Source of the DNA: Escherichia phage EP-M-A
Strand: one strand, 5' to 3'
Length of the DNA: 24,264 nucleotides
Sequence record: OR992643
Every line of letters starts with the position of its first letter. Position 1 is the first letter of the stretch. Both the position numbers and the translations under genes were made by a program. Below, one piece after another: positions 1 to 22,875 of the stretch. Under the pieces are notes generated by a model. It searched no databases and was not told where the DNA came from. It was given only the letters and a program-made list of their open reading frames with translations.

Positions 1-87
1 GATTTCACCCATTACATCTACGACTTGTAACTGCTGCCGTAGTTGGTTAATCAGGTACTCGAATACTTCGTTTTTGTTACTCATCAT
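1..87 (-). CDS. hypothetical protein, 5' part only (runs off the left edge); begins MMSNKNEVFEYLINQLRQQLQVVDVMGEI
   Basis: ATG-ATG at 87..82 on the minus strand with a GGAGG Shine-Dalgarno (plus 94-98) upstream; frame open to the window edge; start overlaps the stop of the upstream gene by 11 nt. Confidence 0.45.
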   Translation of the reverse strand, partial: MMSNKNEVFEYLINQLRQQLQVVDVMGEI

Positions 88-295
88 CCGGTTCCTCCCC
101 GTTATATTCTTCAAACACAAAGGCATCGTCTGCGGATAACGCCCATCGACCATACCCGGTGTAATAGACGTCAAGTTCAGTGCCGTTGTCGTCTATTATG
201 TAGCATCGACTCTCGTCGCTGTCTTCTTTGATGTGGTACAGGTCGTTTTTAGCCAGCGCCCAGTAACCATCGTAGGATTTGCATTCCAGGAACAT
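77..295 (-). CDS. hypothetical small acidic protein, 72 aa
   Basis: ORF from the track; AGGAG Shine-Dalgarno just upstream of the ATG at 295; sits downstream of minus-strand promoter A. Confidence 0.6.
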   Translation of the reverse strand: MFLECKSYDGYWALAKNDLYHIKEDSDESRCYIIDDNGTELDVYYTGYGRWALSADDAFVFEEYNGEEPDDE

Positions 296-325
296 CTCTG
301 TCTCTCCTATCGTCTGTGTAAATGA

Positions 326-354
326 ATAGTAGTCTATTCTATCCCAGTGTGCAA
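326..354 (-). promoter_or_regulatory. sigma70-like promoter (-35 TTGCAC, 17 nt spacer, -10 TACTAT) containing the palindrome GAATAG-N4-CTATTC
   Basis: Read on the minus strand: TTGCAC = plus 349-354, TACTAT = plus 326-331; palindrome at 324-339; about 25 nt upstream of the ATG at 295. Confidence 0.55.
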
Positions 355-361
355 GTAAATT

Positions 362-535
362 TTATTGGTGTGTTATTGAATCGATGAACGCCAGTAAACC
401 CCGTTCCGCCTCTGCTTCTCTTTCTTCAAGCGACCAGGTAGCGGATTCCTCTGTTGCCGGTGCTAAATCGGTTTTTACATCCATCATTGTGTCGATTAAC
501 GCGATTAGTCGTTCAGCCTGTTCTTTAGTAATCAT
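362..535 (-). CDS. hypothetical protein, 57 aa (MITKEQAERLIALIDTMMDVKTDLAPATEESATWSLEEREAEAERGLLAFIDSITHQ); absent from the ORF track because under 60 aa
   Basis: Hand translation of the minus strand; AGGAG about 8 nt upstream of the ATG at 535; protein-like composition; the overlapping plus ORF 384..596 is low-complexity. Confidence 0.5.
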   Translation of the reverse strand: MITKEQAERLIALIDTMMDVKTDLAPATEESATWSLEEREAEAERGLLAFIDSITHQ

Positions 536-659
536 TGTTGCATCTCCTGCAATAGTCGCTTCGATTGTTGCATTTGGTGAAATAGAACAAAAATGAGAAA
601 AATGATACGCTGCTGTGTAGCAGCGTAAGTCACTCAGTAAAATCCCAAACTATTGAACA

Positions 660-839
660 TCACACTTCCGGCGGCTCGGGTAACGACATCCAGTGGGTCA
701 CCCCGGCACACTTAACATATTCATCACAGACAAAGTCACCGTTGTATCTTGCTATATAGCAGTACCCGGCGCGGACATAGACAATGACATACTCCCCATA
801 TTTAGGCATCTGCTCACTGCACTCAACCCACTTACTCAT
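660..839 (-). CDS. hypothetical protein, 59 aa, ending ...GVTHWMSLPEPPEV (resembles the C-terminal W-x-LPEPP signature of DUF551-type phage proteins)
   Basis: Hand translation; GAGGTGA Shine-Dalgarno directly upstream of the ATG at 839; its start context overlaps the stop of the upstream gene 843..986. Family assignment is from memory. Confidence 0.5.
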   Translation of the reverse strand: MSKWVECSEQMPKYGEYVIVYVRAGYCYIARYNGDFVCDEYVKCAGVTHWMSLPEPPEV

Positions 840-842
840 ATC

Positions 843-986
843 TCACCTCGTATTCATCACAGCTTGCACACCAGCTTTCCACGCCCGCCACGCGAGACGC
901 GTCTTAACGTTAAGGTACTCTTTCTTCGAACCCTTGTTAATCGGCAAACCCTCGACGATGGCCCACCGTTCAAATGCTTCTCTCAT
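843..986 (-). CDS. hypothetical protein, 47 aa (MREAFERWAIVEGLPINKGSKKEYLNVKTRLAWRAWKAGVQAVMNTR)
   Basis: Hand translation; its TGA stop lies inside the GAGGTGAGATATG start context of the next gene, a translational-coupling arrangement. Confidence 0.45.
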   Translation of the reverse strand: MREAFERWAIVEGLPINKGSKKEYLNVKTRLAWRAWKAGVQAVMNTR

Positions 987-1019
987 ACCAACCCCCGCAC
1001 CACATAAACGGTTAAAATA

Positions 1020-1319
1020 TTACTTAACACGGCAACCTCCCTCAGAGTCGTCGGCACGAGCATCATGATTCGATGCCGTTCGTATAAACAGCTTACCTTT
1101 GCGCTGTAACAAATCCATTGTCACGGCGCCAGCCCCTGACTTATTAGGGCGACGCAGCCGGCTAAAATTCCATACCCGGGCCTTTGTTACATCCCGGGCG
1201 TTACATACCCACAAAGCACCATTTTCTCTTAGTTCCAGTAAATCAGAAATGTTGAAATTATTTACTGGGATAAACCCGCTAATGAACTGGCGTTCGCATT
1301 GAGGTAATTCTTCCATCAC
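1020..1319 (-). CDS. hypothetical protein, 99 aa
   Basis: ORF from the track; ATGA start/stop overlap with the upstream gene 1316..1501; purine-rich GGGGTGA upstream of the start. Confidence 0.55.
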   Translation of the reverse strand: MMEELPQCERQFISGFIPVNNFNISDLLELRENGALWVCNARDVTKARVWNFSRLRRPNKSGAGAVTMDLLQRKGKLFIRTASNHDARADDSEGGCRVK

Positions 1320-1501
1320 TTCACCCCTTTGAATTTAAAATTGTTGCCGATGAGTTTTATCTCGTCCCCGAAGCACCACTTACCGAAACGCTGGTTAGGT
1401 GTACGGATGTAGTACATCCCGTTAACCTTATTTGAAATTCGTTCGATAGCACCGTAATAACCGTAATCGTTTACTTTAACCAACTGACCCTTCTTAAACA
1501 T
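1316..1501 (-). CDS. hypothetical protein, 61 aa
   Basis: ORF from the track; GAGGAG Shine-Dalgarno 9 nt upstream of the ATG at 1501; first gene downstream of minus-strand promoter B. Confidence 0.6.
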   Translation of the reverse strand: MFKKGQLVKVNDYGYYGAIERISNKVNGMYYIRTPNQRFGKWCFGDEIKLIGNNFKFKGVK

Positions 1502-1536
1502 AACCCCTCGCTCCTCTGTCTCGTTTCGATAAGTGA

Positions 1537-1565
1537 ATAGTAACCTATTATGTTGGGGTGTGCAA
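1537..1565 (-). promoter_or_regulatory. sigma70-like promoter (-35 TTGCAC, 17 nt spacer, -10 TACTAT) with palindrome GAATAG-taac-CTATTA at 1535-1550
   Basis: Same TTGCAC-N17-TACTATTCA architecture as the promoter at 326-354; TTGCAC = plus 1560-1565, TACTAT = plus 1537-1542; drives the leftward small-gene operon. Confidence 0.55.
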
Positions 1566-1637
1566 GAGAATAGTTACGTTGCCGTTGTGATTCTTTAGGG
1601 AAGGTTGTGCCTTTATTCTTATTACTTGGTAACTAAA

Positions 1638-1658
1638 GGGCAGGCCTTAAGCCTGCCC
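1638..1658. other. perfect 8 bp GC-rich hairpin GGGCAGGC-cttaa-GCCTGCCC in the non-coding region
   Basis: Inverted repeat read directly; on the minus strand it is followed by a T-rich run (TTTAGTT). Possible insulator/terminator or RNA element. Confidence 0.4.
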
Positions 1659-1935
1659 GATAATCGTTACATTTTTACGGTTGCGAATCTACGGCACATT
1701 AAGAAAATCAGATACTTAAGAGATATGCTGCCGGTGAGAATAGAGCTTGCCCAGGGCAACCGGAGATACTTAGGAAGGAAAGTTACGATAATTCTCGTGT
1801 TCAGTAAGCCTGTGTTTAACCCTTTGCTTGACGCACGGGTTAAACATTCTTACAAGGTGAACAGGAATCAAAGTAACTAAGATATAGAAGCACCTTAAAC
1901 GAAGATTTTCATAATGTCAATAGGTGCGATTATGT

Positions 1936-1964
1936 TTGATTTCCCATTATTCGCAATGTATACT
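1936..1964 (+). promoter_or_regulatory. sigma70-like promoter (-35 TTGATT, 17 nt spacer, -10 TATACT) for the rightward operon
   Basis: Hexamers and spacing read directly; about 30 nt upstream of the ATG at 1997; lacks the GAATAG palindrome. Confidence 0.45.
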
Positions 1965-1996
1965 TGGTTCCGTTAACTGATAATGAGGGGTTGAGA

Positions 1997-2167
1997 ATGA
2001 CGCAGAATGAAGTAGCTGAGCGTATCGGGGTTACTCGTCGCACGCTGAATAACTGGTTAAAGAGCGGGAAGTTCCCGGATTGTTGTATTCGCATTATGGG
2101 CCGCCGGCAGCCAGGTACGTTTGACCGGGAGAAAGTGGAAGCGTGGATTAAGGAGAACGTGAAATGA
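1997..2167 (+). CDS. small HTH DNA-binding protein (AlpA/excisionase-like fold), 56 aa
   Basis: MTQNEVAERIGVTRRTLNNWLKSGKFP is a typical helix-turn-helix; GAGGGG Shine-Dalgarno 8 nt upstream of the ATG at 1997. The track ORF starts at a TTG at 1964, judged less likely. Confidence 0.6.
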   Translation: MTQNEVAERIGVTRRTLNNWLKSGKFPDCCIRIMGRRQPGTFDREKVEAWIKENVK

Positions 2168-2397
2168 CTGAGTTCCAGTCACGCGTATTTACGGCGGTCG
2201 TCTCATTAACACGTAAAAAAGGGTCGTGCAGCGTTATGGACTTGCGCCGTAGTTATTTTAAGTACTATAGTTCCGCCGTTATTGAAGGGTCGTTGAAGGT
2301 GCTGGTTAAATCCGGTGTCGTGAAAAATGTTGGCGGGAAATATAGTGCCGTTGCTGAAGTTCGCGGAATGACCGCTACTTTAGAGGACCTGGAATAA
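2164..2397 (+). CDS. hypothetical protein, 77 aa, ending ...TATLEDLE
   Basis: ATGA overlap with the preceding gene; acidic C-terminal EDLE tail as on the primase-helicase and nuclease. Confidence 0.55.
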   Translation: MTEFQSRVFTAVVSLTRKKGSCSVMDLRRSYFKYYSSAVIEGSLKVLVKSGVVKNVGGKYSAVAEVRGMTATLEDLE

Positions 2398-2456
2398 AAG
2401 AAAGCCCCGACGCGGTGAACGCCGAGGCCAAATTACTTGCTGAAGGAATATACAAC

Positions 2457-4700
2457 ATGTCCGATGTAATTTTATCCTACTCGTGGTCTCGTCGCAACGC
2501 GCGAGCAGAGAAAAAGGATATAAACGTCAGAACCACACACATGGCAACACTGGACGACCTGAAAGAGTTAATCCGGCCGCTCGATGCTGTTCGTGATGGG
2601 GTTAACCCGAAGACCGCGCCCGGCTATATCACAGCCGCGTGCGACTCAACACACAGCACCGTAAAAGACCCGGAAACCGGGGACTTTAAGCAAGCGCGTA
2701 AAGGCTTCTTTTATCGCTGTGACGCGTCTGTAAGCAAATCGTCGCTGGCATATCTGGACTTCGACAGCACAACGCCGGAAGAGTATCAGGAAGCGGTGCG
2801 ACTGGTTAAGCGCAGCCGTCAGGCCATGTGCCTCTATACCACGGCATCCCATACCGATGAGTCACCGCGCTTTCGCGTCGTTATGCCCCTGGGCCGACCG
2901 GTTGAAGGTGGTGACATAATCCGTGTTCGTCATGGATTGCTTGAGCACTTCTTCAAAGGCATGGGTGCGGACCGCAGCGGGTTCACTCTTTCGCAGCCGA
3001 TGTACCTGCCGCCGGTCGGCTCTACCGTTATCTGGTCGCGTCGCAACGACCTGATTGACCCGGACGAGTTACTGGAAGGCATCCCGGATTACGATGTGAG
3101 CAGCGCATCGGATTACCAGATACCGGAAGAACTGCGCACCGCGTTTACAGACGCGTTCGAGGCGCTGGCGTTTGAGTATGGCGGCATCATGACGCCCCGC
3201 GGCCTTAAGATGCCAGCTACACCAGAACACGCAGAGAACTACAGCGACCCGACCCCTCGCCCGGATGACTTCCTGCTGTGTTTCCCGCGTGAGGGCTACG
3301 AAGCGCCTAACGTAACCATGATTCACGACACCGACATTACGGCAACCGAAGGCATGTCGCCGAAAGAGGTGTGGAGATACGCGTGCGATGCGACCGGGCT
3401 GCCATTCAGTGAAGTCGCCGAGGCTATCGGCTGGGGTGCACGTGAATATGTCTCATGCAGCCTCGACGACCTGGAAGATGGTGATGAGGACTCAGAGGAG
3501 GATGAGTTACCGGAACCGGTAAAGGCTGATTTCGTCGTTGAGGGGTATATGCCGTCGGATTGTATCTGGGATATTGTTGGGGAATCAGGCACGTACAAAT
3601 CATTCTATACGCTGGGTATGATGTACCTTAGCGCGGCGGGATACCGGTTTGCAGGCGCTGACACCCAGCGTTGCCACCACTTCTATATCGACGGTGAGGG
3701 GGGCGCAGCCACACGTACACGTATTGACGCGCTCGCGGCTAAATACGGCGCAGAGGGTAAAGATTATGTACACGTCATCGACATGGGCGAAGTCGGCAAA
3801 CTTAAAAGCCTGATTAAGTTAATGCGCGAAACTGCGGGCGATGAACCTATCGGCATGGTCGCGTTCGACACCCTTAACCAGACCCTGGCCCTGACGATTG
3901 ATAAGTTCGACGAGAACAGCTCATCAACGGCAATCGGTATGGGTAAAGTTATCGCCATCCTGAAAGAAGTACGTGATGCGACTAAAGCCGCGGTGGGCGT
4001 CGTCCACCATACACCGAAGGGTGGAAAGAAAGCCCGCGGTAGTGGGGCGCTGTATGCGGGCGTCGACGTGGAACTGACAATCGAACGCGCCACTGACCGT
4101 CAGATAAACGTATACCACTCTAAATTTAAGCATGGGCCTCAACAGAAGACGGTTGGCATGGTGCTGGAGTCGGTACAGTTCCGTGAAGCGCCACCACCGA
4201 AAGAGTACCGTGCGGTTGAGTTCCTCGGTAGCACAGAGGAATACGGCACAATCGTAAACCTCGACCTGCCGGAACCGCACAAGGCGCTTGTGCTGATGCC
4301 GTGGGGATTCGAGCCGTTCAAGACTGACGAGGAGAAGGAGCGGGAAGAAGGGCTGACAAAGGAAGGTAAAGAAAACGTAAAGAATGCTGTGAAACGTGGG
4401 AAGGATGAAGGGCGTAAGGAATCAATACTCGCCGCGCTGGAAGACCTGCAACAGTCTGACGACACCGGACGCGGTTTTACCCAACGACAGATAGTAGCGA
4501 ACTCGGGTGACCACGCCATCACCAACCATCATCTTGAGAAGATGCTGAAAGACGGGGAGTTGATGCTTGGGTGTGATATTAACGGTGAAGTTATGCCGGG
4601 CACATACCGGATACCGGAAAAGATGGGTGACAGATTAAGACCGAAGACAATATACGAACCGAATGAAATGCTGGTGGTGACAGAGGAGGATTTGGAATAG
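2457..4700 (+). CDS. bifunctional DNA primase/helicase: N-terminal archaeo-eukaryotic-primase-like (PrimPol) domain plus C-terminal RecA-fold (DnaB/RepA-like) ATPase
   Basis: AEP-like motifs (LDFD; TTASH); Walker A GESGTYKSF; Walker B MVAFDTLN; HHTPKG...ARGSGAL; ends VTEEDLE. Start set at ATG 2457 (GAAGGAA upstream) rather than the GTG at 2415. Confidence 0.8.
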   Translation: MSDVILSYSWSRRNARAEKKDINVRTTHMATLDDLKELIRPLDAVRDGVNPKTAPGYITAACDSTHSTVKDPETGDFKQARKGFFYRCDASVSKSSLAYLDFDSTTPEEYQEAVRLVKRSRQAMCLYTTASHTDESPRFRVVMPLGRPVEGGDIIRVRHGLLEHFFKGMGADRSGFTLSQPMYLPPVGSTVIWSRRNDLIDPDELLEGIPDYDVSSASDYQIPEELRTAFTDAFEALAFEYGGIMTPRGLKMPATPEHAENYSDPTPRPDDFLLCFPREGYEAPNVTMIHDTDITATEGMSPKEVWRYACDATGLPFSEVAEAIGWGAREYVSCSLDDLEDGDEDSEEDELPEPVKADFVVEGYMPSDCIWDIVGESGTYKSFYTLGMMYLSAAGYRFAGADTQRCHHFYIDGEGGAATRTRIDALAAKYGAEGKDYVHVIDMGEVGKLKSLIKLMRETAGDEPIGMVAFDTLNQTLALTIDKFDENSSSTAIGMGKVIAILKEVRDATKAAVGVVHHTPKGGKKARGSGALYAGVDVELTIERATDRQINVYHSKFKHGPQQKTVGMVLESVQFREAPPPKEYRAVEFLGSTEEYGTIVNLDLPEPHKALVLMPWGFEPFKTDEEKEREEGLTKEGKENVKNAVKRGKDEGRKESILAALEDLQQSDDTGRGFTQRQIVANSGDHAITNHHLEKMLKDGELMLGCDINGEVMPGTYRIPEKMGDRLRPKTIYEPNEMLVVTEEDLE

Positions 4701-4708
4701 GTAAAAAG

Positions 4709-4728
4709 AAAGGGGCGTTAAGCCCCTT
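4709..4728. terminator. bidirectional hairpin AAGGGGC-gttaa-GCCCCTT between convergent genes
   Basis: Inverted repeat read directly between the primase-helicase stop (4700) and the XRE regulator stop (4718). Confidence 0.5.
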
Positions 4729-4933
4729 CACCGAACGCCAGCCACTTGGCGTCTACTTGCAGCACTTCCGCCAGTTTAAACAGCGTTGCCGGGCGGACAT
4801 CCTGAGTTACCCCAAGGGCCAGCTGGTTAATTGCACCCTGGGAAACGCCGGTTAGTACAGCCAGACGGCGCTGGGAGATTCCAAGTTCTTTGCGGCGTTG
4901 TTCTACACGGATGCCTAGTTCAGATGGTTGCAT
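4718..4933 (-). CDS. XRE-family (Cro/CI-type) helix-turn-helix transcriptional regulator, 71 aa
   Basis: LGISQRRLAVLTGVSQGAINQLALG is a canonical HTH_3 motif; GGAG Shine-Dalgarno upstream of the ATG at 4933; divergent from the gene at 5058 with two palindromic operator-like sites between them. Confidence 0.8.
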   Translation of the reverse strand: MQPSELGIRVEQRRKELGISQRRLAVLTGVSQGAINQLALGVTQDVRPATLFKLAEVLQVDAKWLAFGEGA

Positions 4934-4962
4934 GTCAATTACTCCTTAGTTAGTTGATATGT

Positions 4963-4978
4963 GAATAGTACCATATTA
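4963..4978. promoter_or_regulatory. operator-like palindrome GAATAG-tacc-ATATTA overlapping the -10 region (TACTAT on the minus strand) of the XRE gene
   Basis: Imperfect copy of the GAATAG-N4-CTATTA palindrome that recurs in about seven promoters in this window. Confidence 0.5.
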
Positions 4979-4997
4979 ATTATTTTAGAAAAGCCCA

Positions 4998-5026
4998 TTG
5001 ACATGTGAATAGTTCGCTATTATAGT
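4998..5026 (+). promoter_or_regulatory. near-consensus sigma70 promoter (-35 TTGACA, 17 nt spacer, -10 TATAGT) with palindrome GAATAG-ttcg-CTATTA in the spacer
   Basis: TTGACA 4998-5003, TATAGT 5021-5026; about 30 nt upstream of the GAGAGGAGAG Shine-Dalgarno and ATG at 5058. Confidence 0.7.
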
Positions 5027-5057
5027 TAGCCCATACCAAACGAGAGGAGAGAAACAA

Positions 5058-5528
5058 ATGTTAGACCAATTCTTAAAATTACTGGAACGTTTCGTAGTTG
5101 CACATGAACTGATTGCTGCGAACAGTGTGAAACAAGTAGTCGTTGCTGAAACCGCAACAATCGAGACCACTGTTGCGAAAGAAGCAACAAAAGAAATCCC
5201 AGTCGAAGGTGAAGACGTCGTTGACATTAAACCTGCAGAAGAAGAGAAGCCGAAACGCAAGCCGCGTAAAGCTAAAGTAGAGGAGCCGACGCCAGAGCCG
5301 GAAGAAGAGAAAGAAGAAGTCGATTACCAGTCTCTGCGTGACCAGATTCAGGCTATCGATGACGCAATTAACGAAGGTCCTAGCGATGCCGCGTGCGATG
5401 ATTCCGATGAACTGCTGGAAGAGTTCACCGGTAAGAAGATGAAGATTGCCGAGATTAAAGACGAAGACCTGGCCGAATACCTGGAACGCCTGACAGCAAT
5501 CAAGAACAAGTATTTTGAAGAAGAATAA
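5058..5528 (+). CDS. highly acidic, Glu/Asp/Lys-rich protein, 156 aa; function unknown (possible DNA-mimic or anti-defence candidate)
   Basis: Strong Shine-Dalgarno; first gene after the operator-controlled promoter; followed by a hairpin terminator. No recognisable catalytic motif. Confidence 0.7.
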   Translation: MLDQFLKLLERFVVAHELIAANSVKQVVVAETATIETTVAKEATKEIPVEGEDVVDIKPAEEEKPKRKPRKAKVEEPTPEPEEEKEEVDYQSLRDQIQAIDDAINEGPSDAACDDSDELLEEFTGKKMKIAEIKDEDLAEYLERLTAIKNKYFEEE

Positions 5529-5535
5529 CTATCCC

Positions 5536-5556
5536 GCGGCCTTCGGGCCGCTTTAA
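5536..5556 (+). terminator. intrinsic terminator-like hairpin GCGGCC-UUCG-GGCCGC followed by TTTAA
   Basis: UUCG tetraloop hairpin and short T tract immediately after the stop at 5528. Confidence 0.6.
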
Positions 5557-5571
5557 CTGAGGGTCGGAATT

Positions 5572-5844
5572 ATGATTTACCAACTATACCGCGCCGTTGA
5601 CAGGCGGGATAACACAGAGGCGCTATGGTTATTGCGCGCGCCGTCCGGTGCACACCAGATGGAAGAGATGGCGTACTTAGGCAAAGTGCCACGGCCTAAA
5701 GACATAGGCCGCCACGTGTCGCATATTAAGCGTACGACTTTCGCCAAGCCTGACTTTTATGTCTTCGAGTCGATGTATGGCTGGGCTATGCATTGCCATC
5801 ACAAGACGCGACATTTAATTGACCAGTGGGAGAACAGGGTATGA
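5572..5844 (+). CDS. hypothetical protein, 90 aa
   Basis: GAGGG Shine-Dalgarno 8 nt upstream; ATGA overlap with the downstream nuclease gene; its initiation region repeats the one in front of the DNA polymerase. Confidence 0.6.
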   Translation: MIYQLYRAVDRRDNTEALWLLRAPSGAHQMEEMAYLGKVPRPKDIGRHVSHIKRTTFAKPDFYVFESMYGWAMHCHHKTRHLIDQWENRV

Positions 5845-7082
5845 TTCTTAAAGAACGCGGCGGCAATAATGATGTACATGCCTTACTGTCACCGTCAGGC
5901 GCTAAAAAGTGGCTGAGTTGTGCTGCATCACTGGCCTGTGAAAAAGATATTCCTAACACATCTGGTAAAGCTGCCGTTACAGGGACCGCGTGCCACACTA
6001 TAGCTGAGGTCCATCTCAACGCTTATATTCGCGGAACTGCGCTACCGTTAGAGCGTGAAGTCGGTGCTTATGTTCTGGATGAGGGCAAAGGCCAGATTAA
6101 GGCGCTAATCAGTCCTATGAAAGGCGCTGTACTGATTACGGCGGACATGATTGAGCAGGTGCGCAAGTACACCGACTACTGCAAACCGATTATCGACGTG
6201 GCTACTTTCGCTAAGCTGGAGATGCGCGTAAATCTTACTGAGGTATTGCATCCGGGGTATGAAGGCGTTGAGACGTTCGGAACCGCAGACCTTGTTGCCG
6301 TTCAGGAACTGACAAACACCGACGAGCACATGCTCATTATCGGCGACCTTAAAACAGGGCGGCATCGTGTCGAAGCGAAAGAAAACAAGCAGCTTATGCT
6401 TTACGCTCTCGGTGTTTATCGCAGACTTAAGAGACGTTATAACATAACAACCGTTCGTCTGGTTATCTTCCAGCCGTACGCTGGCGGTGCGTCGGAGTGG
6501 GACATCCCGGTTGAAGGGCTGGAACTGTTCGCCAAGTTCGCACAGAAACGCGCGCTGTTAGCGCTAGATGCGTACTTCCGCGGTAAGAAGAACCTGAAAG
6601 CGTCGGACTTTAAGCCGTCGGTAGATGGTTGTCAGTGGTGTAGGTTCTCTGAACAATGCGCCGCGCGTACAAAGACGGTTAATTCTGTACTGGCGGAAGA
6701 ACTTGAAGACGACTTTGCACTAGAACTAACGCCGGAGCAACTCGTCGCCGAGTATGAGAAGTTGCCGTTGTTGCGCCAGCACATCGATAAGGTCGAGAAA
6801 GCGATGGCGGCCGTGTTGCATTCCGGTAAGAAAGTGCCAGGGTACAAACTGGTTGAAGGCCGCCCGGGTAATCGTGCGTGGAAAGACGCGGAGAAAGTAA
6901 CAGAACTCTACGGCGACAAGCTGACTAAAGAAGTGCTCATGACGCCTACCGAAGCTGTTAAAGTCATACCGGAAGAAGAACTGAAAGACTTCATTACCCG
7001 TAAGCCGGGCGCACCATGTGTCGCAACGGCAGACGACAAACGTCCTGAGTGGAATCAGGTAACAGAGGAGGATTTAGAATGA
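5841..7082 (+). CDS. PD-(D/E)XK exonuclease of the Cas4/RecB-nuclease type with a four-cysteine cluster (probable recombination exonuclease)
   Basis: N-terminal Cys (WLSCAAS); nuclease core TADLVAV...IGDLKTG and QLMLYAL; C-terminal CQWCRFSEQC (C-x2-C-x5-C); ends VTEEDLE. Start set at ATG 5841. Confidence 0.8.
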   Translation: MILKERGGNNDVHALLSPSGAKKWLSCAASLACEKDIPNTSGKAAVTGTACHTIAEVHLNAYIRGTALPLEREVGAYVLDEGKGQIKALISPMKGAVLITADMIEQVRKYTDYCKPIIDVATFAKLEMRVNLTEVLHPGYEGVETFGTADLVAVQELTNTDEHMLIIGDLKTGRHRVEAKENKQLMLYALGVYRRLKRRYNITTVRLVIFQPYAGGASEWDIPVEGLELFAKFAQKRALLALDAYFRGKKNLKASDFKPSVDGCQWCRFSEQCAARTKTVNSVLAEELEDDFALELTPEQLVAEYEKLPLLRQHIDKVEKAMAAVLHSGKKVPGYKLVEGRPGNRAWKDAEKVTELYGDKLTKEVLMTPTEAVKVIPEEELKDFITRKPGAPCVATADDKRPEWNQVTEEDLE

Positions 7083-7279
7083 TTCGTAAAATGTTCAGAG
7101 TAATTGGCGGTTTTGTGGCGTTTTTAACTTATCACGCGCTAATATTGCCGCTTGTCATAATGCTTCTTCCGTTTTTCGCGTATACCGCGTTCAAGTGCAG
7201 GAAAATAGAGCTAGAGGATTTGGTGTACGCCAAAGAAGTTGAGTGGGTTCGTAATTTGAAGTGGCCTAACTATACCTAA
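7079..7279 (+). CDS. small hydrophobic (probable membrane) protein, 66 aa
   Basis: The GAGGAGGA formed by the EEDLE codons of the upstream gene serves as its Shine-Dalgarno; ATGA overlap; hydrophobic stretch FVAFLTYHALILPLVIMLLPFFAY. Confidence 0.55.
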   Translation: MIRKMFRVIGGFVAFLTYHALILPLVIMLLPFFAYTAFKCRKIELEDLVYAKEVEWVRNLKWPNYT

Positions 7280-7284
7280 CTATA
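7265..7284. repeat. perfect tandem direct repeat CCTAACTATA x2, overlapping the palindrome AACTATAGTT (7278-7287)
   Basis: Read directly; about 25 bp upstream of the -35 of the SSB promoter; contains a further TATAGT hexamer. Confidence 0.5.
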
Positions 7285-7310
7285 GTTGAGAAAATAACTG
7301 GCTGGAAGGG

Positions 7311-7339
7311 TTGACACCTGAATAGTTAGCTATTATAGT
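7311..7339 (+). promoter_or_regulatory. consensus-like sigma70 promoter (-35 TTGACA, 17 nt spacer, -10 TATAGT) with palindrome GAATAG-ttag-CTATTA in the spacer
   Basis: TTGACA 7311-7316, TATAGT 7334-7339; upstream of the SSB gene. Confidence 0.7.
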
Positions 7340-7406
7340 TCTAATAACTGGCCGGGCAGTTCCCGGAGTAAACTTTGAAATATAAACTGAAAAGCGAGAA
7401 ATCAAG

Positions 7407-8033
7407 ATGGGACTGAAATTAAATCTGCGTAAAGTAAACACTGCATGGGTTAACGTATTTGAACGCGAAAAAGACCGTGAAAACGATGATGGTTCAATCA
7501 CTAAAGGCCAGTACAGCGCAACTATTATCCTGCCGTCTGACCATGCCCAAATCGATGCACTCTACGACAATGTTTACGCTGTAGTTGAAGAAGCGTTAGG
7601 TGCAGCCGCCGCCGAGAAGTGGATGAAGTCCAACTATGGCGAAGGTAAGCACATGGATAAATGCGCGATTAAAGACATTGCTGAGCGCGACAATCCGTTT
7701 GAAGACTTCCCGGAAGGCTTCTACTTCAAAGCGAAGGCACAGAAACAGCCACTGATTGTAACCTCTAAAAAAGGTGAGACCCAGGTAGAGCAGGACTTCA
7801 ACGTAGACGGTGAACAGATTGAAGGCGAACAGGTTTACAGTGGCTGCGTTGCTAACGTAAGCGTCGAAATCTGGTTCAGCCAGAAATATAAAGTTCTCGG
7901 TGTTAACCTGCTGGCGATTAAGTACGTCGGGGAAGGTAAAGCGTTTGGTGGCTCTAAAGTCGCCGCAAGCGTCGATGACCTGGAAGACGACGAAGAAGAT
8001 GGATCACCGCGCCGCGAACGTCGCCGTCGCTAA
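7407..8033 (+). CDS. single-stranded DNA-binding protein (T7 gp2.5-like), 208 aa
   Basis: Resembles gp2.5-type SSBs (C-terminal ...KAFGG... followed by the acidic tail VDDLEDDEEDG), here extended by a basic RRERRRR end; hairpin terminator downstream. Confidence 0.65.
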   Translation: MGLKLNLRKVNTAWVNVFEREKDRENDDGSITKGQYSATIILPSDHAQIDALYDNVYAVVEEALGAAAAEKWMKSNYGEGKHMDKCAIKDIAERDNPFEDFPEGFYFKAKAQKQPLIVTSKKGETQVEQDFNVDGEQIEGEQVYSGCVANVSVEIWFSQKYKVLGVNLLAIKYVGEGKAFGGSKVAASVDDLEDDEEDGSPRRERRRR

Positions 8034-8052
8034 TATCTGAATCAATTTAACT

Positions 8053-8076
8053 AAGGCCCTTCATTGGGCCTTTTTA
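8053..8076 (+). terminator. intrinsic terminator AAGGCCC-ttcatt-GGGCCTT plus TTTTT
   Basis: GC-rich hairpin and T tract immediately downstream of the SSB stop. Confidence 0.65.
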
Positions 8077-8092
8077 CTAAGGGTCGAAAATA

Positions 8093-10273
8093 ATGAGTTA
8101 CCTGTTCTTAGACTTTGAAACATTCTCCGAAGCCGATTTGAAGAAAGTCGGTTCTTACGCTTACGCCGAGCATCCGTCAACCGAAGTGCTTATCTGTACA
8201 TACTCTTTTGACGACGAGCCAGTACGTGTATGGGATTGCACTGACGGCAGCGACATGCCAGGAGATTTGCACCGTGCTCTGCGCCGTCTGGTGAAGCCAA
8301 ACAGCCGCATTAAGATGGTGTGGCACAACGGTGGACTTTTCGATAGGCCCATCATGAAACACTGCTGGGGCTTTGATATTCCCGTAAGCAACACCATTGA
8401 TACGATGATTTGGGCGTTTCGTCACGCGCTGCCGGGTTCACTTGATGCGCTGTGTGAAGTGCTCGGCGTGTCTGCTGACAATGCAAAAGATAAACGCGGC
8501 AAGGCGCTGATTCAGCGTTTCTCTAAACCGACACCGAAGAATTACAAAATCCGCCGCTACACCGCAGAAACACACCCGGACGAGTGGGCGCTGTTCATCA
8601 AGTACGCCGTGAGCGACATCACTGCGATGCGTGAAGTCTTCCATAAGCTGCCGCGTTGGGGTAACTCTGAGTTCGAAGACCGTGTACTGGAACTGGACCA
8701 GTTAATCAACGACCGCGGGTTTAAGGTTGACGTTGCACTGGCGGAAGCCGCTATTGAAGCCGTGGAGAAACACAAAGCGCAGTTACAGGAGGAAGCCCAA
8801 CGCAAATACGGCGGCTCGCTTACTGGTAAGGACTTTCTGCCGATTCTTCGTGAACTCTCCCCTGCACACCGCATACACAACGCACAGAAGTCGACGCTTA
8901 ACGACCTGCTGGCGGACGATGATTTACCGGACGACGCACGCACAATTATCGAAATGCGCCTCGGGGCCGCGTCCACCGCGTCAACGAAATATAACCCGCT
9001 GCTGTTGGGCCGCTCGTCTGACGACCGACGCCGTGGTTGCATCCAGTACGGTGGGGCCAAGCGTACGTTACGGTTTGCAGGTAAAGGCTTCCAGCCGCAG
9101 AACCTGGCGCGCGGGTACTATCACGATGATGAATTGGATAAAGGCATTTCAGCGTTACTTAAAGGCCGGGCACACCGCCGTTTTGATGTAGCCAAGCTAA
9201 CGGCATCGACGGTACGTAGCTGCATCATATCGGAAGTGGGGCATAAGTTTGTCGTCGCCGATTACTCAAACGTCGAAGGCCGTGGTTTAGCGTGGCTGGC
9301 AGGCGAAGAAACCGCGCTAGATACGTTCCGCGCCGGACTGGATATTTACTGCGTAACCGCAGGTAAGATGTTCGGCATGGACCCAGATTACATTAAGAAA
9401 GAACGTAAAGATTTGCGCCAGATTGGTAAGGCCTGCGAACTTGGGCTTGGCTATGCGGGCGGTGTCGGCGCATTCGTACAGTTCGCCAAGAACCTTGGCC
9501 TTGACCTGGTTGATATGGCAAAAACAATGGATGGGACTTTCCCCGACCACATCTGGGCTGCTACCGCACGTGGATATGAGTGGGCGCGTATTCAGGAAGC
9601 CAAGCGACCACCACGTCCAGGTGAAAAGGATGACCGACCATCATATATTCTTGATAAGAAAGTGTGGCGTACCTGTGACGCTATCAAGCGCATGTGGCGC
9701 GAGTCTCACCCGGAAACAGTAGCTTTCTGGCGAGATATTGAAGATGCAGCTATGGCGGCTATCCGCAACCCAGGTAAAGAGTTCACCGCAGGGCCGCGGG
9801 GCGTTAAGTTTTCGCGTAACGTAGAAACAGACACCAACGGCAACAAAGTCGCGGGCTGGTGGTTGCGCATGACGTTGCCGTCGGGCCGCGTTATGTCTTA
9901 CCCGGGCGTTGGTTTAAGTGTATCAAAAGAGACAGACGAAGACGGGAAGGTGTCTACTAACGTGCGCATCAAGTACCAGGGCGAAAACCAGTTAACCAGG
10001 CAGTGGGGCTTCCAGTATACCTACTCCGGTAAACTGGTGGAAAACTGCACTCAGGCGCTGTGCCGTGATTTGCTGGCTAATGCCCTGCTTAACGTCGAAG
10101 CAAACGGCTACCCAATTGTGCTTCATGTTCACGATGAGATTATCTGCGAGACGCCAGATTTACCGGAATACAATGTCGCAGAGCTTGAACGGTTGATGTG
10201 CGAATTACCAGAGTGGGCAGAGGGGTTCCCTCTTGTAGCGGAAGGTGCGGAGATGAAGCGCTATGCTAAGTAA
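8093..10273 (+). CDS. family A DNA polymerase with N-terminal 3'-5' proofreading exonuclease domain, 726 aa
   Basis: Exo I motif FLDFETFS; Pol A motif A VVADYSNVEGRGLAWLAG; motif B RQIGKACELGLGYAGG; motif C VLHVHDEIICE. Confidence 0.9.
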   Translation: MSYLFLDFETFSEADLKKVGSYAYAEHPSTEVLICTYSFDDEPVRVWDCTDGSDMPGDLHRALRRLVKPNSRIKMVWHNGGLFDRPIMKHCWGFDIPVSNTIDTMIWAFRHALPGSLDALCEVLGVSADNAKDKRGKALIQRFSKPTPKNYKIRRYTAETHPDEWALFIKYAVSDITAMREVFHKLPRWGNSEFEDRVLELDQLINDRGFKVDVALAEAAIEAVEKHKAQLQEEAQRKYGGSLTGKDFLPILRELSPAHRIHNAQKSTLNDLLADDDLPDDARTIIEMRLGAASTASTKYNPLLLGRSSDDRRRGCIQYGGAKRTLRFAGKGFQPQNLARGYYHDDELDKGISALLKGRAHRRFDVAKLTASTVRSCIISEVGHKFVVADYSNVEGRGLAWLAGEETALDTFRAGLDIYCVTAGKMFGMDPDYIKKERKDLRQIGKACELGLGYAGGVGAFVQFAKNLGLDLVDMAKTMDGTFPDHIWAATARGYEWARIQEAKRPPRPGEKDDRPSYILDKKVWRTCDAIKRMWRESHPETVAFWRDIEDAAMAAIRNPGKEFTAGPRGVKFSRNVETDTNGNKVAGWWLRMTLPSGRVMSYPGVGLSVSKETDEDGKVSTNVRIKYQGENQLTRQWGFQYTYSGKLVENCTQALCRDLLANALLNVEANGYPIVLHVHDEIICETPDLPEYNVAELERLMCELPEWAEGFPLVAEGAEMKRYAK

Positions 10274-10331
10274 ACTGATTATTGCGGTACTGGCGGGATT
10301 CGCCGCCGGTGTCTACTGTCACGAGGGGTAA
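10263..10331 (+). CDS. candidate micro-ORF, 22 aa, hydrophobic (MLSKLIIAVLAGFAAGVYCHEG)
   Basis: Hand translation; overlaps the polymerase stop; its terminal GAGGGG doubles as the Shine-Dalgarno for the next micro-ORF. Speculative. Confidence 0.25.
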   Translation: MLSKLIIAVLAGFAAGVYCHEG

Positions 10332-10337
10332 TACGGC

Positions 10338-10394
10338 ATGATGGTAGCCGTATTGGGTATGTTCATCGCAATTTATCTGTGGGTGCTGGAATGA
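10338..10394 (+). CDS. candidate micro-ORF, 18 aa, hydrophobic (MMVAVLGMFIAIYLWVLE)
   Basis: GAGGGG 9 nt upstream; ATGA overlap with the next micro-ORF. Speculative. Confidence 0.3.
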   Translation: MMVAVLGMFIAIYLWVLE

Positions 10395-10480
10395 AAATTT
10401 ACTGGTTTTATGAGGAAGACTGCCGAATCTGTCCGCGCTGCGGTATTGAGCATACGAAACGTGAGGGGTGTGTATTATGA
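10391..10480 (+). CDS. candidate micro-ORF, 29 aa, Cys-rich zinc-ribbon-like peptide (MKIYWFYEEDCRICPRCGIEHTKREGCVL)
   Basis: C-x2-C-x2-C pattern plus a further Cys; ATGA overlaps on both sides (previous micro-ORF and HNH gene). Speculative. Confidence 0.3.
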   Translation: MKIYWFYEEDCRICPRCGIEHTKREGCVL

Positions 10481-10974
10481 AAGCACCAAGTGACGATATA
10501 AAAGATTTTCTGTCATACGACCCAGATACCGGGATATTTAAATGGGTCAAGCACAGATGCCAGACCGCGAAACCCGGAGATGTTGTTACATACAAGGACC
10601 GTAAAGGGTACATATTGTTAGGATGGAATAGGGTGTATTACCGCGCACACAGGCTGGCGTGGTGGTGGGTGTACGGAGAGATGCCAACTAAGCAAATAGA
10701 CCATATTAACGGCATACGGGACGATAATCGGATTTGTAACCTACGGCTTGCGGATGAATTTCAACAGAACCATAACCGCAAGACCCCAGTTACAAACACC
10801 AGCGGGGTGAAAGGGGTTAACTGGAGTAAGCACCATAATGCTTGGTGTGCCCGCGTTGGTTTTAAAGGTACACGCCACCAGATTGGGTATTTCCAGAACC
10901 TAAATGAAGCAGACGAATCGCTGAGAGAATTTAGGGCAAAACTGCACGGAGAGTTTTGCAACCATGGCGACTAA
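10477..10974 (+). CDS. HNH homing endonuclease with C-terminal AP2-type DNA-binding domain
   Basis: HNH_3-like HRLAWWWVYGEMPTKQIDHINGIRDDNRICNLR; AP2-like GVKGVNWSKHHNAWCARVGFKGTRHQIGYF. Start at ATG 10477 with a GAGGGG Shine-Dalgarno. Confidence 0.8.
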   Translation: MKAPSDDIKDFLSYDPDTGIFKWVKHRCQTAKPGDVVTYKDRKGYILLGWNRVYYRAHRLAWWWVYGEMPTKQIDHINGIRDDNRICNLRLADEFQQNHNRKTPVTNTSGVKGVNWSKHHNAWCARVGFKGTRHQIGYFQNLNEADESLREFRAKLHGEFCNHGD

Positions 10975-11251
10975 AGAGGGCCGCGTACAGAAATACGCAA
11001 AAGAGCAATTCGAGGCCATTGGCGGCCTCGTTCGTAAACTTTCGTACGAGGGGCGCTCCGGCGCCCCTGACCTGCTGGTAATTCTCCCCGGCGGCATCGT
11101 CTGGTTCGTCGAGGTTAAGAAAGACGAAAACACGAAGCCTGACCCGCACCAGTTACGTGAGCATGAGCGGATGCGTAAACGCGGTGCAAATGTTTTTGTC
11201 GTTGGTTCGTTTAAACAGGTTGACGACCTAATAGCGAACTATTATAGTTAG
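10964..11251 (+). CDS. VRR-NUC domain nuclease (PD-(D/E)XK fold), 95 aa
   Basis: Core GAPDLLVILPGGIVWFVEVKKD (D...E-V-K) is typical of VRR-NUC; start overlaps the HNH stop. Confidence 0.7.
   Translation: MATKEGRVQKYAKEQFEAIGGLVRKLSYEGRSGAPDLLVILPGGIVWFVEVKKDENTKPDPHQLREHERMRKRGANVFVVGSFKQVDDLIANYYS
11220..11248 (+). promoter_or_regulatory. sigma70-like promoter (-35 TTGACG, 17 nt spacer, -10 TATAGT) with palindrome AATAG-cgaa-CTATT, embedded in the last codons of the VRR-NUC gene
   Basis: TTGACG 11220-11225, TATAGT 11243-11248; same architecture as the promoters at 4998 and 7311; followed by the leader motif ACACCAACAAT shared with the 22870 region. Confidence 0.6.
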
Positions 11252-11281
11252 CCATACACCAACAATATAAGGAATTGAGAA

Positions 11282-11473
11282 ATGAAACACGAATATGACC
11301 GCAAGCCAGCACGTGACATCGTACCTGGCGACATGATTTTCAACGTTAAGACCCGCCAGCCTGTTGCCGTTGATACTGTGTTCGTCGAGTCAAACGGTAA
11401 ACTGGTTATCGAAGATGTAACCGGTAACGTTACGGCGTTCGGGCGTAAAGAGCTAGTTTTGGTGGCAAAATGA
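11282..11473 (+). CDS. hypothetical protein, 63 aa
   Basis: AAGGA Shine-Dalgarno upstream; ATGA overlap with the downstream methyltransferase gene. Confidence 0.6.
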   Translation: MKHEYDRKPARDIVPGDMIFNVKTRQPVAVDTVFVESNGKLVIEDVTGNVTAFGRKELVLVAK

Positions 11474-13816: not shown

Positions 13817-14016
13817 GTAATGAGTTCGATATTGACGCTTGCAACGAATTGATAAAAGACGCTCTTAACGCCCGCGAGCAACTTCTTGCTATGCAGTTAA
13901 AGCGAGAAATAAAACGTATCAAGGAACTCGAGGAGGAGGTTCTACGACTACGCCAGCAAAGAGACGCCGCTAATGCGCAACTGGCGTTTGTACTTGAGAA
14001 GTTATCAGAAGAGTAA
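13813..14016 (+). CDS. hypothetical coiled-coil protein, 67 aa
   Basis: ATGA overlap with the SNF2 gene; heptad-like charged sequence; followed by a bidirectional terminator. Confidence 0.55.
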   Translation: MSNEFDIDACNELIKDALNAREQLLAMQLKREIKRIKELEEEVLRLRQQRDAANAQLAFVLEKLSEE

Positions 14017-14020
14017 AGAA

Positions 14021-14040
14021 AAGGCCCCGTTTGGGGCCTT
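14021..14040. terminator. bidirectional terminator hairpin AAGGCCCC-gttt-GGGGCCTT between convergent operons
   Basis: Perfect 8 bp stem; T-rich on the minus-strand side (downstream of the tailspike gene). Confidence 0.65.
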
Positions 14041-14044
14041 CAAC

Positions 14045-22737: not shown

Positions 22738-22857
22738 TCTTTAATCCTTTGGTTAAGAGGTTACAGGTTAAGGGAAATGCGCCAGACGGGAACCACCCGC
22801 TTTTCGTGTGCGACACTAGGCGCAAAATTATTCTATCACATTACTTGCGTACCCCAA

Positions 22858-22875
22858 TATAATAGGGTACTATTC
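22858..22875. promoter_or_regulatory. divergent control region: consensus -10 TATAAT (22858-22863) overlapping palindrome AATAG-ggta-CTATTC (22861-22875)
   Basis: Palindrome copy between the leftward tail operon and the rightward Imm gene; leader motif ACACCAACAAT as after the 11220 promoter. Orientation and -35 are ambiguous. Confidence 0.45.

What the first reader, a model, noticed from the sequence alone, without database searches (positions are those of the whole stretch)
4934..5057. About seven promoters share the palindrome GAATAG-N4-CTATT(A/C), next to a candidate XRE repressor
Copies lie at 324-339, 1535-1550, 4963-4978, 5007-5022, 7321-7336, 11230-11243 and 22861-22875. Each sits in the spacer or -10 of a sigma70-like promoter: TTGACA-N17-TATAGT on the plus strand (4998, 7311, 11220) and TTGCAC-N17-TACTAT on the minus strand (326-354, 1537-1565). 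The left arm GAATAG is not needed for promoter function, so its conservation implies a dimeric DNA-binding protein. The XRE HTH gene (4718-4933) is divergent from one such promoter with two copies in its own upstream region, a Cro/CI-like layout. This looks like a single-repressor regulon over early, replication and tail operons, without an integrase in the window.
Basis: seen in the sequence. Interest (0 to 1): 0.75.

Follow-up and report, generated by a model that had tools for sequence, protein, structure and literature searches.

The report
Shared operator palindrome on phage promoters
A 16-bp palindrome sits on the core of nearly every early and DNA-replication promoter of this virulent E. 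coli phage (a Kagunavirus) and is most likely the binding site of the phage's own 71-aa 434-Cro-like repressor; the repeat was already published, mislabelled as a "phage RNA polymerase promoter".

Summary
[G/T]AATAG-N4-CTATT[A/C] occurs 7 times in the window and 8 times exactly in the whole genome, against 0.02 expected. All copies are intergenic, overlap the spacer/-10 of sigma70-type promoters, and lie 13-71 nt upstream of a start codon.

The window is a Kagunavirus (near-identical to phage EP-B-K_E2), a virulent siphovirus with no integrase or RNA polymerase gene annotated in relatives.

Across 46 related metagenomic loci, the "unnecessary" left arm is as conserved as the -35 and -10 hexamers, while the central 4 bp drift. 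The palindrome sits in three registers (3, 6 or 9 nt after the -35). That fits steric repression rather than phased activation.

The XRE protein is the best candidate reader. It is 434-Cro-like by sequence and fold and is present in every motif-bearing genome. In recombinant phages the palindrome's outer base (G vs T) follows the XRE type rather than the flanking DNA. A second HTH protein (HTH_17) is eliminated: phage ST20 lacks it but keeps the sites.

Binding is not demonstrated. The "tail operon" claim is wrong: site 22860 drives a superinfection-immunity/exonuclease cassette.

The repeat was already reported by PHIRE in two genome papers as "phage promoters". This is an ordinary kind of system: a new member, better explained.

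The parts
4718..4933 (-). XRE / 434-Cro-like HTH gene (71 aa), the proposed reader of the palindrome
   Evidence: Pfam HTH_3 E 1e-12, 48 bits against a cutoff of 23. The best PDB sequence hit is 434 Cro, also 71 aa, E 2e-6. The AF2 model has 5 helices and its best Foldseek hit is 2cro, TM 0.73/0.78. It is present in 46 of 46 motif-bearing loci that cover the position.
4963..4978 (-). Imperfect palindrome (TAATATGGTACTATTC on the - strand) over the -10 TACTAT of the XRE gene's own promoter, with a TGn extended -10; proposed weak autoregulatory operator
   Evidence: The single mismatch (TAATAT) is the same in all Kagunavirus loci shown. The XRE start codon is 29 nt downstream.
4998..5026 (+). 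Class A promoter TTGACA-N17-TATAGT with palindrome GAATAGTTCGCTATTA at 5007-5022; drives p156 (5058-5528) and the exonuclease operon
   Evidence: 11 of 12 consensus match.
7311..7339 (+). Class A promoter TTGACA-N17-TATAGT with palindrome GAATAGTTAGCTATTA at 7320-7335; drives SSB (7407-8033) and DNA polymerase
   Evidence: 11 of 12. In 24 distinct orthologous promoters anchored on the hexamers only, the left arm carries 8-9/9 information and the centre 3-7.
11220..11248 (+). Class A promoter TTGACG-N17-TATAGT with palindrome TAATAGCGAACTATTA at 11229-11244; drives p63 (11282-11473), the methyltransferase and the helicase
   Evidence: 10 of 12.
326..354 (-). Class B promoter TTGCAC-N17-TACTAT with palindrome at 324-339 (-10 inside the right arm); drives leftward small genes (77-295 and onward)
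1537..1565 (-). Class B promoter TTGCAC-N17-TACTAT with palindrome at 1535-1550; drives leftward small genes (1316-1501 and onward)
22845..22875 (+). Class B promoter TTGCGT-N17-TACTAT with palindrome TAATAGGGTACTATTC at 22860-22875; drives the superinfection-immunity gene (22889-23095) and a DNA-repair exonuclease, not the tail operon
   Evidence: Pfam Imm_superinfect E 9e-13. The tail chaperone gene 22321-22737 is on the opposite strand.

Best explanation
The 16-bp palindrome [G/T]AATAG-N4-CTATT[A/C] is an operator. A dimer of a phage-encoded protein, most probably the 71-aa 434-Cro-like XRE protein (4718-4933), binds it. Because every copy overlaps the spacer and -10 of a host-sigma70 promoter, binding excludes RNA polymerase. 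This turns down the small early genes, the three DNA-replication/recombination operons and the superinfection-immunity cassette. The protein's own promoter carries a conserved one-mismatch copy, so it would be shut off last (negative autoregulation). There is no CI partner, integrase or bistable switch: this is a Cro-only throttle in a virulent phage. Shown: the sites, their promoter context, selection on both arms, the protein's fold, and its co-occurrence and covariation with the site. Inferred: that XRE is the binder, and that binding represses.
For: (1) Enrichment: 8 exact copies against 0.02 expected, and the top palindrome in an unbiased enumeration.
(2) All copies are intergenic, on promoter cores, 13-71 nt upstream of an RBS and start codon.
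(3) Anchoring on the -35/-10 hexamers only, the left arm AATAG carries as much information as the hexamers while the N4 centre is free. In clades without the motif the same SSB-promoter spacer is unconstrained.
(4) Three registers occur (palindrome 3, 6 or 9 nt after the -35). All overlap the polymerase footprint, as expected for occlusion rather than phased activation.
(5) XRE has Pfam HTH_3. Its nearest solved relative by sequence and by fold is 434 Cro. From my own knowledge, 434 Cro reads 14-bp operators with the same 5-N4-5 layout.
(6) XRE is present in 46 of 46 motif-bearing loci that cover the position.
(7) Covariation: 35 of 35 Kagunavirus-type-XRE loci have GAATAG at the SSB promoter, and 11 of 11 Jerseyvirus-type-XRE loci have TAATAG. 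In two independent mosaics (L044/L027 and L038) the flanks are Kagunavirus-derived: in L044/L027 the upstream 40 nt are 95-98% identical to Kagunavirus L010, and in L038 the Kagunavirus ancestry is clear only downstream (88-91% over 100 nt). Yet the outer base and centre of the palindrome have changed. L040 has the length of Raoultella phage RP180 (an inference), carries the Kagunavirus-type XRE and keeps G, so the base follows the XRE type rather than the host genus.
(8) The only tolerated arm variant recurs (A[A/C]TAG), as expected for protein-recognition degeneracy.
(9) The rival HTH_17 protein is absent from the complete phage ST20, which keeps 6 exact and 3 near-exact sites.
Against: No binding data exist. 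The recognition helix differs between Kagunavirus (SQGAINQ) and Jerseyvirus (SQSLITH) although the core half-site is identical, and the Jerseyvirus helix resembles that of St162/VSiP (TQSAISH), which lack the AATAG palindrome. Clade L057-L063 has an XRE homologue but no such regulon within 10 kb. The covariation is with a co-inherited left-hand block (XRE, p156, primase), not with XRE alone. It rests on about two recombination events and is partly confounded with host genus. The single G-to-S helix change in L041 has no visible effect on the sites. A 63-aa protein (p63) has a perfect phyletic match to the motif. The one published RNA-seq study of a Kagunavirus is too coarse to show shut-off.
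Confidence: 0.55

Rival explanations
1. The palindrome is an operator, but the reader is another phage protein: p63 (11282-11473, the first gene after site 11229), the NinH/Fis-like protein encoded outside the window, or an unrecognised small protein.
For: p63 is present in 22 of 22 motif-bearing loci at >=94% identity and in 0 of 9 motif-negative loci. Its near-invariance matches the invariance of the core half-site. A NinH-like HTH protein exists.
Against: The motif-bearing clade is monophyletic, so phyletic profiles are weak evidence. p63 models as an SH3/Tudor-like beta-barrel with no significant structural match and no known palindrome-reading relatives. p63 is invariant, so it cannot explain the G/T switch. 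The NinH-like protein scores below Pfam's cutoff and is 69% conserved in St162, which lacks the motif.
Confidence: 0.15
2. A host (enterobacterial) transcription factor or nucleoid protein binds the palindrome and the phage exploits it.
For: A host factor is available to all these phages by default. The G/T outer-base difference also separates E. coli phages from Salmonella phages.
Against: I know of no E. coli or Salmonella regulator with an AATAG-N4-CTATT site, and a full-text search found none. Sister phages on the same Salmonella hosts (St162, VSiP) lack the motif entirely. The probable Raoultella phage locus L040 keeps the E. coli-phage form.
Confidence: 0.1
3. No separate protein is involved. 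The palindrome is a promoter-intrinsic feature, for example a -10-like element on both strands (bidirectional or antisense promoters) or a duplicated promoter cassette.
For: The right arm always contributes to the -10 (TACTAT, TATTAT or TATAGT). The bottom strand of class A sites even reads TATAAT. Cornellvirus-like phages have TATTA-N6-TAATAT with the same logic.
Against: No -35-like element lies at the right distance on the opposite strand at the unidirectional sites 5007 and 7320 (read directly). The flanks and centre diverge freely while the arms do not, so shared ancestry of a cassette does not explain it. Orthologous promoters function without the left arm in other clades.
Confidence: 0.08
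4. The sites are promoters for a phage-encoded RNA polymerase, as published for fBC-Eco01, or operators of the HTH_17/excisionase-like protein (1964-2167).
For: PHIRE flagged the repeat as 'phage promoters'. HTH_17 is 82% conserved in SE2 and absent from motif-negative St162.
Against: No RNA polymerase gene is annotated in Bas74, SE2 or ST20, and the sites sit inside near-consensus sigma70 promoters. HTH_17 is absent genome-wide from ST20 and from locus L009, which keep 8-9 sites.
Confidence: 0.03

Closest known systems
Phage 434 Cro and its OR/OL operators
   Same: Both are 71-aa single-domain HTH proteins. 434 Cro is the best sequence match (E 2e-6) and the best structural match. The operator is a 14-bp core with 5 conserved bp, 4 variable bp and 5 conserved bp (from my knowledge of 434: ACAAx-N4-xTTGT). 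The sites overlap promoter cores. The gene is divergent from a regulated promoter and has a weaker site on its own side.
   Different: There is no CI partner, no three tandem operators, and no integrase or lysogeny. There are 10-11 dispersed operators rather than two clusters. The half-site is AATAG, not ACAA. Binding is untested.
Multi-site phage repressor regulons (Streptomyces phiC31 conserved inverted repeats; mycobacteriophage L5/Bxb1 'stoperators'), recalled from memory and not tested here
   Same: One small repressor has many copies of one short site spread over the genome at or near early promoters.
   Different: Those are immunity repressors of temperate phages. L5 sites are asymmetric and also act within transcription units. 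Here the phage is virulent and every site is on a promoter core.
PHIRE 'phage-specific promoters' of Kagunavirus Golestan and fBC-Eco01
   Same: These are the identical sequence family: consensus tgAATAGTa-ccTATTat-T, seven sites, and 20-mers such as TAATAGCGAACTATTCACAT.
   Different: The papers treat them as promoters, and fBC-Eco01 attributes them to a phage RNA polymerase that the genome does not encode. Neither paper noted the palindromic/operator nature, the host-type hexamers around them, or a link to XRE.
Restriction-modification controller (C) proteins such as C.AhdI and C.BclI
   Same: They are the second-best structural matches: small dimeric XRE proteins that read palindromes overlapping a promoter and autoregulate.
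   Different: There is no adjacent restriction gene, no C-box (GACT...AGTC) at the main sites, and many targets rather than one.

Membership tests
Cro/C1-type (XRE, lambda-repressor-like) HTH DNA-binding domain | Significant match to the HTH_3 profile above the curated cutoff | tested here: met
   PF01381, 48.2 bits against a cutoff of 23, E 1e-12, residues 11-65.
Cro/C1-type (XRE, lambda-repressor-like) HTH DNA-binding domain | Five-helix globular fold with helices 2-3 forming the HTH | tested here: met
   The AF2 model (pLDDT 77.5) has helices 5-17, 21-28, 32-39, 48-57 and 62-66. The top Foldseek hits are 434 Cro, C.AhdI, SinR, HipB and P22 c2.
Cro/C1-type (XRE, lambda-repressor-like) HTH DNA-binding domain | Binds a palindromic operator as a dimer | not testable with these tools
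   This needs EMSA or footprinting. Only geometry, co-occurrence and covariation support it.
Lambdoid CI/Cro bistable immunity switch | Two divergently transcribed repressor genes sharing the operators | tested here: not met
   The divergent partner is p156 (phrog_3127, no HTH). There is only one XRE gene.
Lambdoid CI/Cro bistable immunity switch | Integrase or lysogeny module in the genome | tested here: not met
   None is annotated in Bas74, SE2 or ST20. Genome papers report no lysogeny genes.
Lambdoid CI/Cro bistable immunity switch | Three tandem operators at the divergent promoters | tested here: not met
   There are two sites, 43-45 bp apart centre to centre.
Phage-RNA-polymerase promoters (the published reading) | Phage-encoded RNA polymerase | tested here: not met
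   No such gene appears in three annotated relatives or among the Pfam hits of 46 small or unannotated proteins.
Sigma70-dependent host promoters | -35 and -10 hexamers with 16-18 bp spacing, upstream of genes | tested here: met
   Class A sites match 10-11 of 12 positions and are the top three in window 1-14100. Class B is TTGCAC-N17-TACTAT. Start sites are not mapped.

The most novel reading that the evidence does not exclude
A strictly virulent phage lineage runs almost its whole transcription programme through one 71-aa Cro-like protein. About 10-11 host-type promoters each carry the operator in one of three registers. The protein-operator pair is retuned when recombination brings a promoter under a different XRE allele (GAATAG vs TAATAG), and a sister clade uses a 16-bp variant (TATTA-N6-TAATA). 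This would give a natural series of compact, possibly orthogonal repressor/operator pairs.
Probability: 0.35. Interest if true: 0.55.

Novelty: new member of a known kind. Interest (0 to 1): 0.38.

Why it matters
First, it corrects the literature. The repeat published as "phage(-polymerase) promoters" in Kagunavirus genomes is a palindromic operator laid over ordinary host sigma70 promoters.

Second, Kagunavirus and Jerseyvirus phages are widely proposed for therapy and food biocontrol, and their genomes are annotated with a "transcriptional repressor / DicA / cI". Showing that this gene is a Cro-like regulator of the lytic programme, in a phage without any lysogeny module, bears on safety screening.

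Third, these 41-44 kb phages are described as attractive synthetic-biology models. A mapped promoter/operator set and a small repressor would be directly usable parts.

It is not a new principle of regulation.

Tried and rejected
1. Bas74 as a natural XRE knockout: rejected. The gene is there but unannotated.

3. Kept only as a minor rival.

4. NinH-like protein: below the Pfam cutoff and conserved in motif-negative St162.

5. Transfer test (same recognition helix next to the same palindrome in unrelated elements): not possible. The protein search found only Kagunavirus-like relatives.

6. Single-residue covariation (L041, G-to-S in the helix): no change in the sites, so uninformative.

7. A conserved alternative operator next to XRE in motif-negative clades: short perfect palindromes exist over their XRE -10 regions (GAGTATACTC in St162, ATACTATAGTAT in L057-L063), but I could not relate them to each other.

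8. Published RNA-seq of Kagunavirus K1B4: latent period 30 min, samples to 120 min, phage reads <=9%. Its temporal classes cannot test shut-off, and the supplement held only the host annotation.

9. MAFFT alignment of short promoter regions that included distant clades gave misalignments. I replaced it with hexamer anchoring.

10. Rfam: no RNA family in the window.

Full report
IDENTITY. Window 4000-9000 is 100% identical to Escherichia phage EP-B-K_E2 (OR992644.1; Kagunavirus, Guernseyvirinae), and hundreds of Kagunavirus and Jerseyvirus genomes match at 80-95%. The window is the reverse complement of that record, runs across its ends, and differs from it at 115 positions. It therefore comes from a near-identical isolate. 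I built a window-oriented full genome (window plus the rest of OR992644, 43,498 bp) to look beyond the window. Annotated relatives (Bas74, SE2, ST20) have no integrase and no RNA polymerase gene. Genome papers call these phages strictly lytic.

OBSERVATION.
- All seven sites are present. One set of coordinates was off by one: 7320-7335, not 7321-7336.
- At <=2 mismatches the window has 15 strand-matches against 4.97 +/- 2.51 expected, and no shuffle reaches 15.
- The whole genome has 8 exact AATAG-N4-CTATT against 0.02 expected.
- An unbiased enumeration of palindromes puts it first by a wide margin.
- Four more sites lie outside the window.
- The hit at 15960 (2 mismatches, inside a tail gene) is consistent with chance.

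ANATOMY. Every copy is intergenic and is followed 13-71 nt later by an RBS and start codon in the promoter's orientation. There are three registers.
- Class A: TTGAC(A/G)-N3-palindrome, with -10 TATAGT starting on the last two palindrome bases (5007, 7320, 11229; + strand). These are the three best sigma70 matches in window 1-14100.
- Class B: TTGC(A/G)(C/T)-N9-palindrome, with -10 TACTAT inside the right arm (324 and 1535 on the - strand; 22860 on the + strand; one more outside the window).
- Class C: -35, N6, palindrome, with -10 TATTAT (one site outside the window; also SE2 33752).

The palindrome centre thus moves by 3 and 6 bp relative to the start site but always lies under RNA polymerase. 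The XRE promoter (4963-4978, - strand) has a one-mismatch palindrome over TACTAT with a TGn extended -10. That mismatch is the same in all Kagunavirus loci shown.

The operons served are:
- two leftward sets of small genes;
- XRE itself;
- p156-exonuclease;
- SSB-DNA polymerase;
- p63-methyltransferase-helicase;
- a superinfection-immunity/DNA-repair-exonuclease cassette.

SELECTION ON THE ARMS. I fetched 74 IMG/VR loci around the exonuclease gene, chosen independently of the motif and of any regulator. I anchored class A promoters on the -35 and -10 hexamers only, then tabulated the spacer columns.
- In 24 distinct SSB promoters and 19 distinct p63 promoters, the left arm AATAG carries the same information (8-9 on a 0-9 scale) as the hexamers.
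- The central four positions score 3-7. An ordinary alignment shows the same pattern.
- In clades that lack the motif, the orthologous SSB promoter keeps TTGACA but its spacer is unconstrained (TTGACActgAATTATTAAACTATTA; TTGACAtctGCAACCAACTAAATTA).

So the left arm is not needed to make a promoter, yet it is held fixed where the system exists. The only recurrent arm variant is A[A/C]TAG.

WHO READS IT. Distribution of the motif:

| Clade | AATAG palindrome | XRE identity to the window |
|---|---|---|
| Kagunavirus-like | present | 96-99% (one at 78%, same HTH) |
| Jerseyvirus-like | present | 42-51% |
| Cornellvirus-like (St162, VSiP) | absent | 39-41% |
| L057-L063 | absent | ~40% |
| L064-L079 | absent | no XRE |

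Candidates:
- (a) XRE. It has HTH_3, and 434 Cro is its nearest solved relative by sequence and by fold. It is present in 46 of 46 motif-bearing loci that cover the position.
- (b) HTH_17/excisionase-like protein, 1964-2167. It is 82% conserved in SE2 and absent from St162. However, locus L009 and the complete cultured phage ST20 replace it with an unrelated 47-aa plus 149-aa module and still carry 8-9 palindromes. Eliminated.
- (c) p63, 11282-11473. It has a perfect phyletic match, 22 of 22 against 0 of 9, at >=94% identity. The motif-bearing clade is monophyletic, which weakens this. The model is an SH3/Tudor-like barrel with no significant match.
- (d) A NinH-like protein. It scores below the Pfam cutoff and is 69% conserved in motif-negative St162.
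- (e) A host factor. None is known to me or found in the literature.

COVARIATION. The outer base of the palindrome differs by clade. In Kagunavirus it is T or G in similar numbers; in Jerseyvirus it is almost only T.
- At the SSB promoter, 35 of 35 loci with Kagunavirus-type XRE have GAATAG, and 11 of 11 with Jerseyvirus-type XRE have TAATAG.
- Three Jerseyvirus-XRE loci are mosaics with a Kagunavirus-type SSB gene (97-98%).
- In L044 and L027 the 40 nt upstream of the palindrome are 95-98% identical to Kagunavirus L010 (51-62% to Jerseyvirus), and the downstream 100 nt are also Kagunavirus-like. Yet 4 of the 16 palindrome positions differ: outer G to T, plus the centre.
- L038 is a second mosaic with the same switch, though its Kagunavirus ancestry is clear only downstream (88-91% over 100 nt); its upstream flank matches no reference well.
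- Conversely, Kagunavirus-XRE loci with quite different SSB genes (46-65% identity) keep G. So does L040, which has the length of Raoultella phage RP180 (an inference), so the base does not simply follow the host genus.

This ties the operator's fine sequence to the block that carries XRE. It does not isolate XRE from its neighbours (p156, primase), and it rests on few events.

AGAINST XRE. The recognition helices differ: Kagunavirus SQGAINQ, Jerseyvirus SQSLITH. The Jerseyvirus helix resembles that of St162 (TQSAISH), which lacks the motif. From my own knowledge, 434 Cro and 434 repressor are only about half identical, differ in the same helix positions, and still read the same operators. So this is a caution rather than a refutation.

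A VARIANT IN THE SISTER CLADE. St162 and VSiP each have three exact TATTA-N6-TAATA palindromes (0.02-0.04 expected), at conserved positions. The geometry is TTGACA-N6-palindrome, with the right arm forming the -10 TAATAT. It has the same length and centre as TAATAG-N4-CTATTA and differs at symmetric positions 3/14 and 6/11. None lies next to their XRE gene. I found this pattern post hoc, and whether it is a diverged version of the same system is open.

MECHANISM PROPOSED. Host RNA polymerase starts at strong sigma70 promoters. XRE, made from its own weak extended -10 promoter, accumulates and binds the palindromes as a dimer. This occludes the -10/spacer and throttles the early and DNA-metabolism operons. 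XRE's own imperfect site fills last. Only the sites, their context and their conservation are shown; binding and the sign of regulation are inferred. The one RNA-seq study of a Kagunavirus has a 30-min latent period, samples to 120 min and <=9% phage reads, so it cannot test this.

PRIOR ART AND NOVELTY. PHIRE analyses of Kagunavirus Golestan (2020) and fBC-Eco01 (2023) list the same seven 20-mers as "conserved/phage promoters". fBC-Eco01 assigns them to a phage RNA polymerase. The repeat is therefore already known. What is new here:
- its palindromic/operator reading;
- the host-type hexamers around it and the three registers;
- the selection on the left arm;
- the exclusion of HTH_17;
- the XRE-linked covariation.

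A Cro-like repressor with palindromic operators over promoters is textbook. This is a new member of that kind, in a virulent phage, with an unusually complete promoter coverage.

Noticed in passing
window 7352-7366 (within the 5' UTR 7340-7406): A small hairpin, CCGGG-CAGTT-CCCGG, in the leader of the SSB gene is almost invariant across Kagunavirus and Jerseyvirus and is recognisable even in St162. Its folding energy is not exceptional (z = 0.6) and there is no Rfam match. It could be a translational or stability element for the SSB mRNA.
   Followed up: partly
window 1964-2167 (+); L009 5799-6384; L081 (ST20) 6954-7539: The HTH_17/excisionase-like gene upstream of the helicase-primase is replaced in some Kagunaviruses (ST20, GZMU_E2010, L009) by an unrelated pair: a 47-aa Cys-rich ORF plus a 149-aa ORF with no Pfam match. 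This is a swappable early module.
   Followed up: partly
window 11282-11473 (+): p63 (phrog_4879, unknown function) is 94-100% identical across two genera whose other proteins are 50-90% identical, and it is absent from sister clades. The AF2 model is an SH3/Tudor-like barrel. Its conservation is unexplained.
   Followed up: partly
window about 1566-1935: About 370 nt between the divergent 1535 promoter and the HTH_17 gene has no convincing gene: the 91-aa TTG ORF has no family hit. It contains a strong GC hairpin at 1638-1658. It may be a regulatory or origin region.
   Followed up: no
L004 (St162) 13003, 26798, 33415; L005 (VSiP) 37446, 7674, 14869: Cornellvirus-like phages carry a different 16-bp palindrome, TATTA-N6-TAATA, on promoters of the form TTGACA-N6-palindrome, with 3 exact copies each against 0.02-0.04 expected.
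   Followed up: partly
L002 (Bas74) 41021-41034; L081 (ST20) 2451-2464; outside the window: A one-mismatch copy (TAATAGTCAACTAGTC) is conserved in Kagunavirus and Jerseyvirus just after the terminator that follows the lysis genes. It overlaps the -35 (TTGACT) of a promoter reading toward the terminase genes, a different placement from all other sites.
   Followed up: no
L002 (Bas74) 33217-33432: The XRE gene is not annotated in Bas74. A 31-aa ORF on the opposite strand is annotated there instead. OR992644 itself is unannotated, flagged UNVERIFIED_ORG, and has a terminal redundancy of about 55 bp.
   Followed up: yes
L004 (St162, NC_069146.1): St162 is filed under Kagunavirus in the record's taxonomy, but it groups with Cornellvirus VSiP in XRE type, exonuclease identity, gene order around XRE and palindrome type.
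   Followed up: no
window 1502-1534, 22876-22900 and the equivalents after other class B sites: The leaders downstream of class B promoters share motifs (ACTTA..CGAAACGAGA.AGAGGAG; ACACCAACA), also seen in St162. This suggests a common 5' UTR element.
   Followed up: no
L011 P_SSB and P_p63 sites: In one Kagunavirus locus, two separate palindromes both carry the same left-arm variant, ACTAG instead of AATAG, with an unchanged XRE sequence. This is the same variant that is fixed in the post-lysis site.
   Followed up: no
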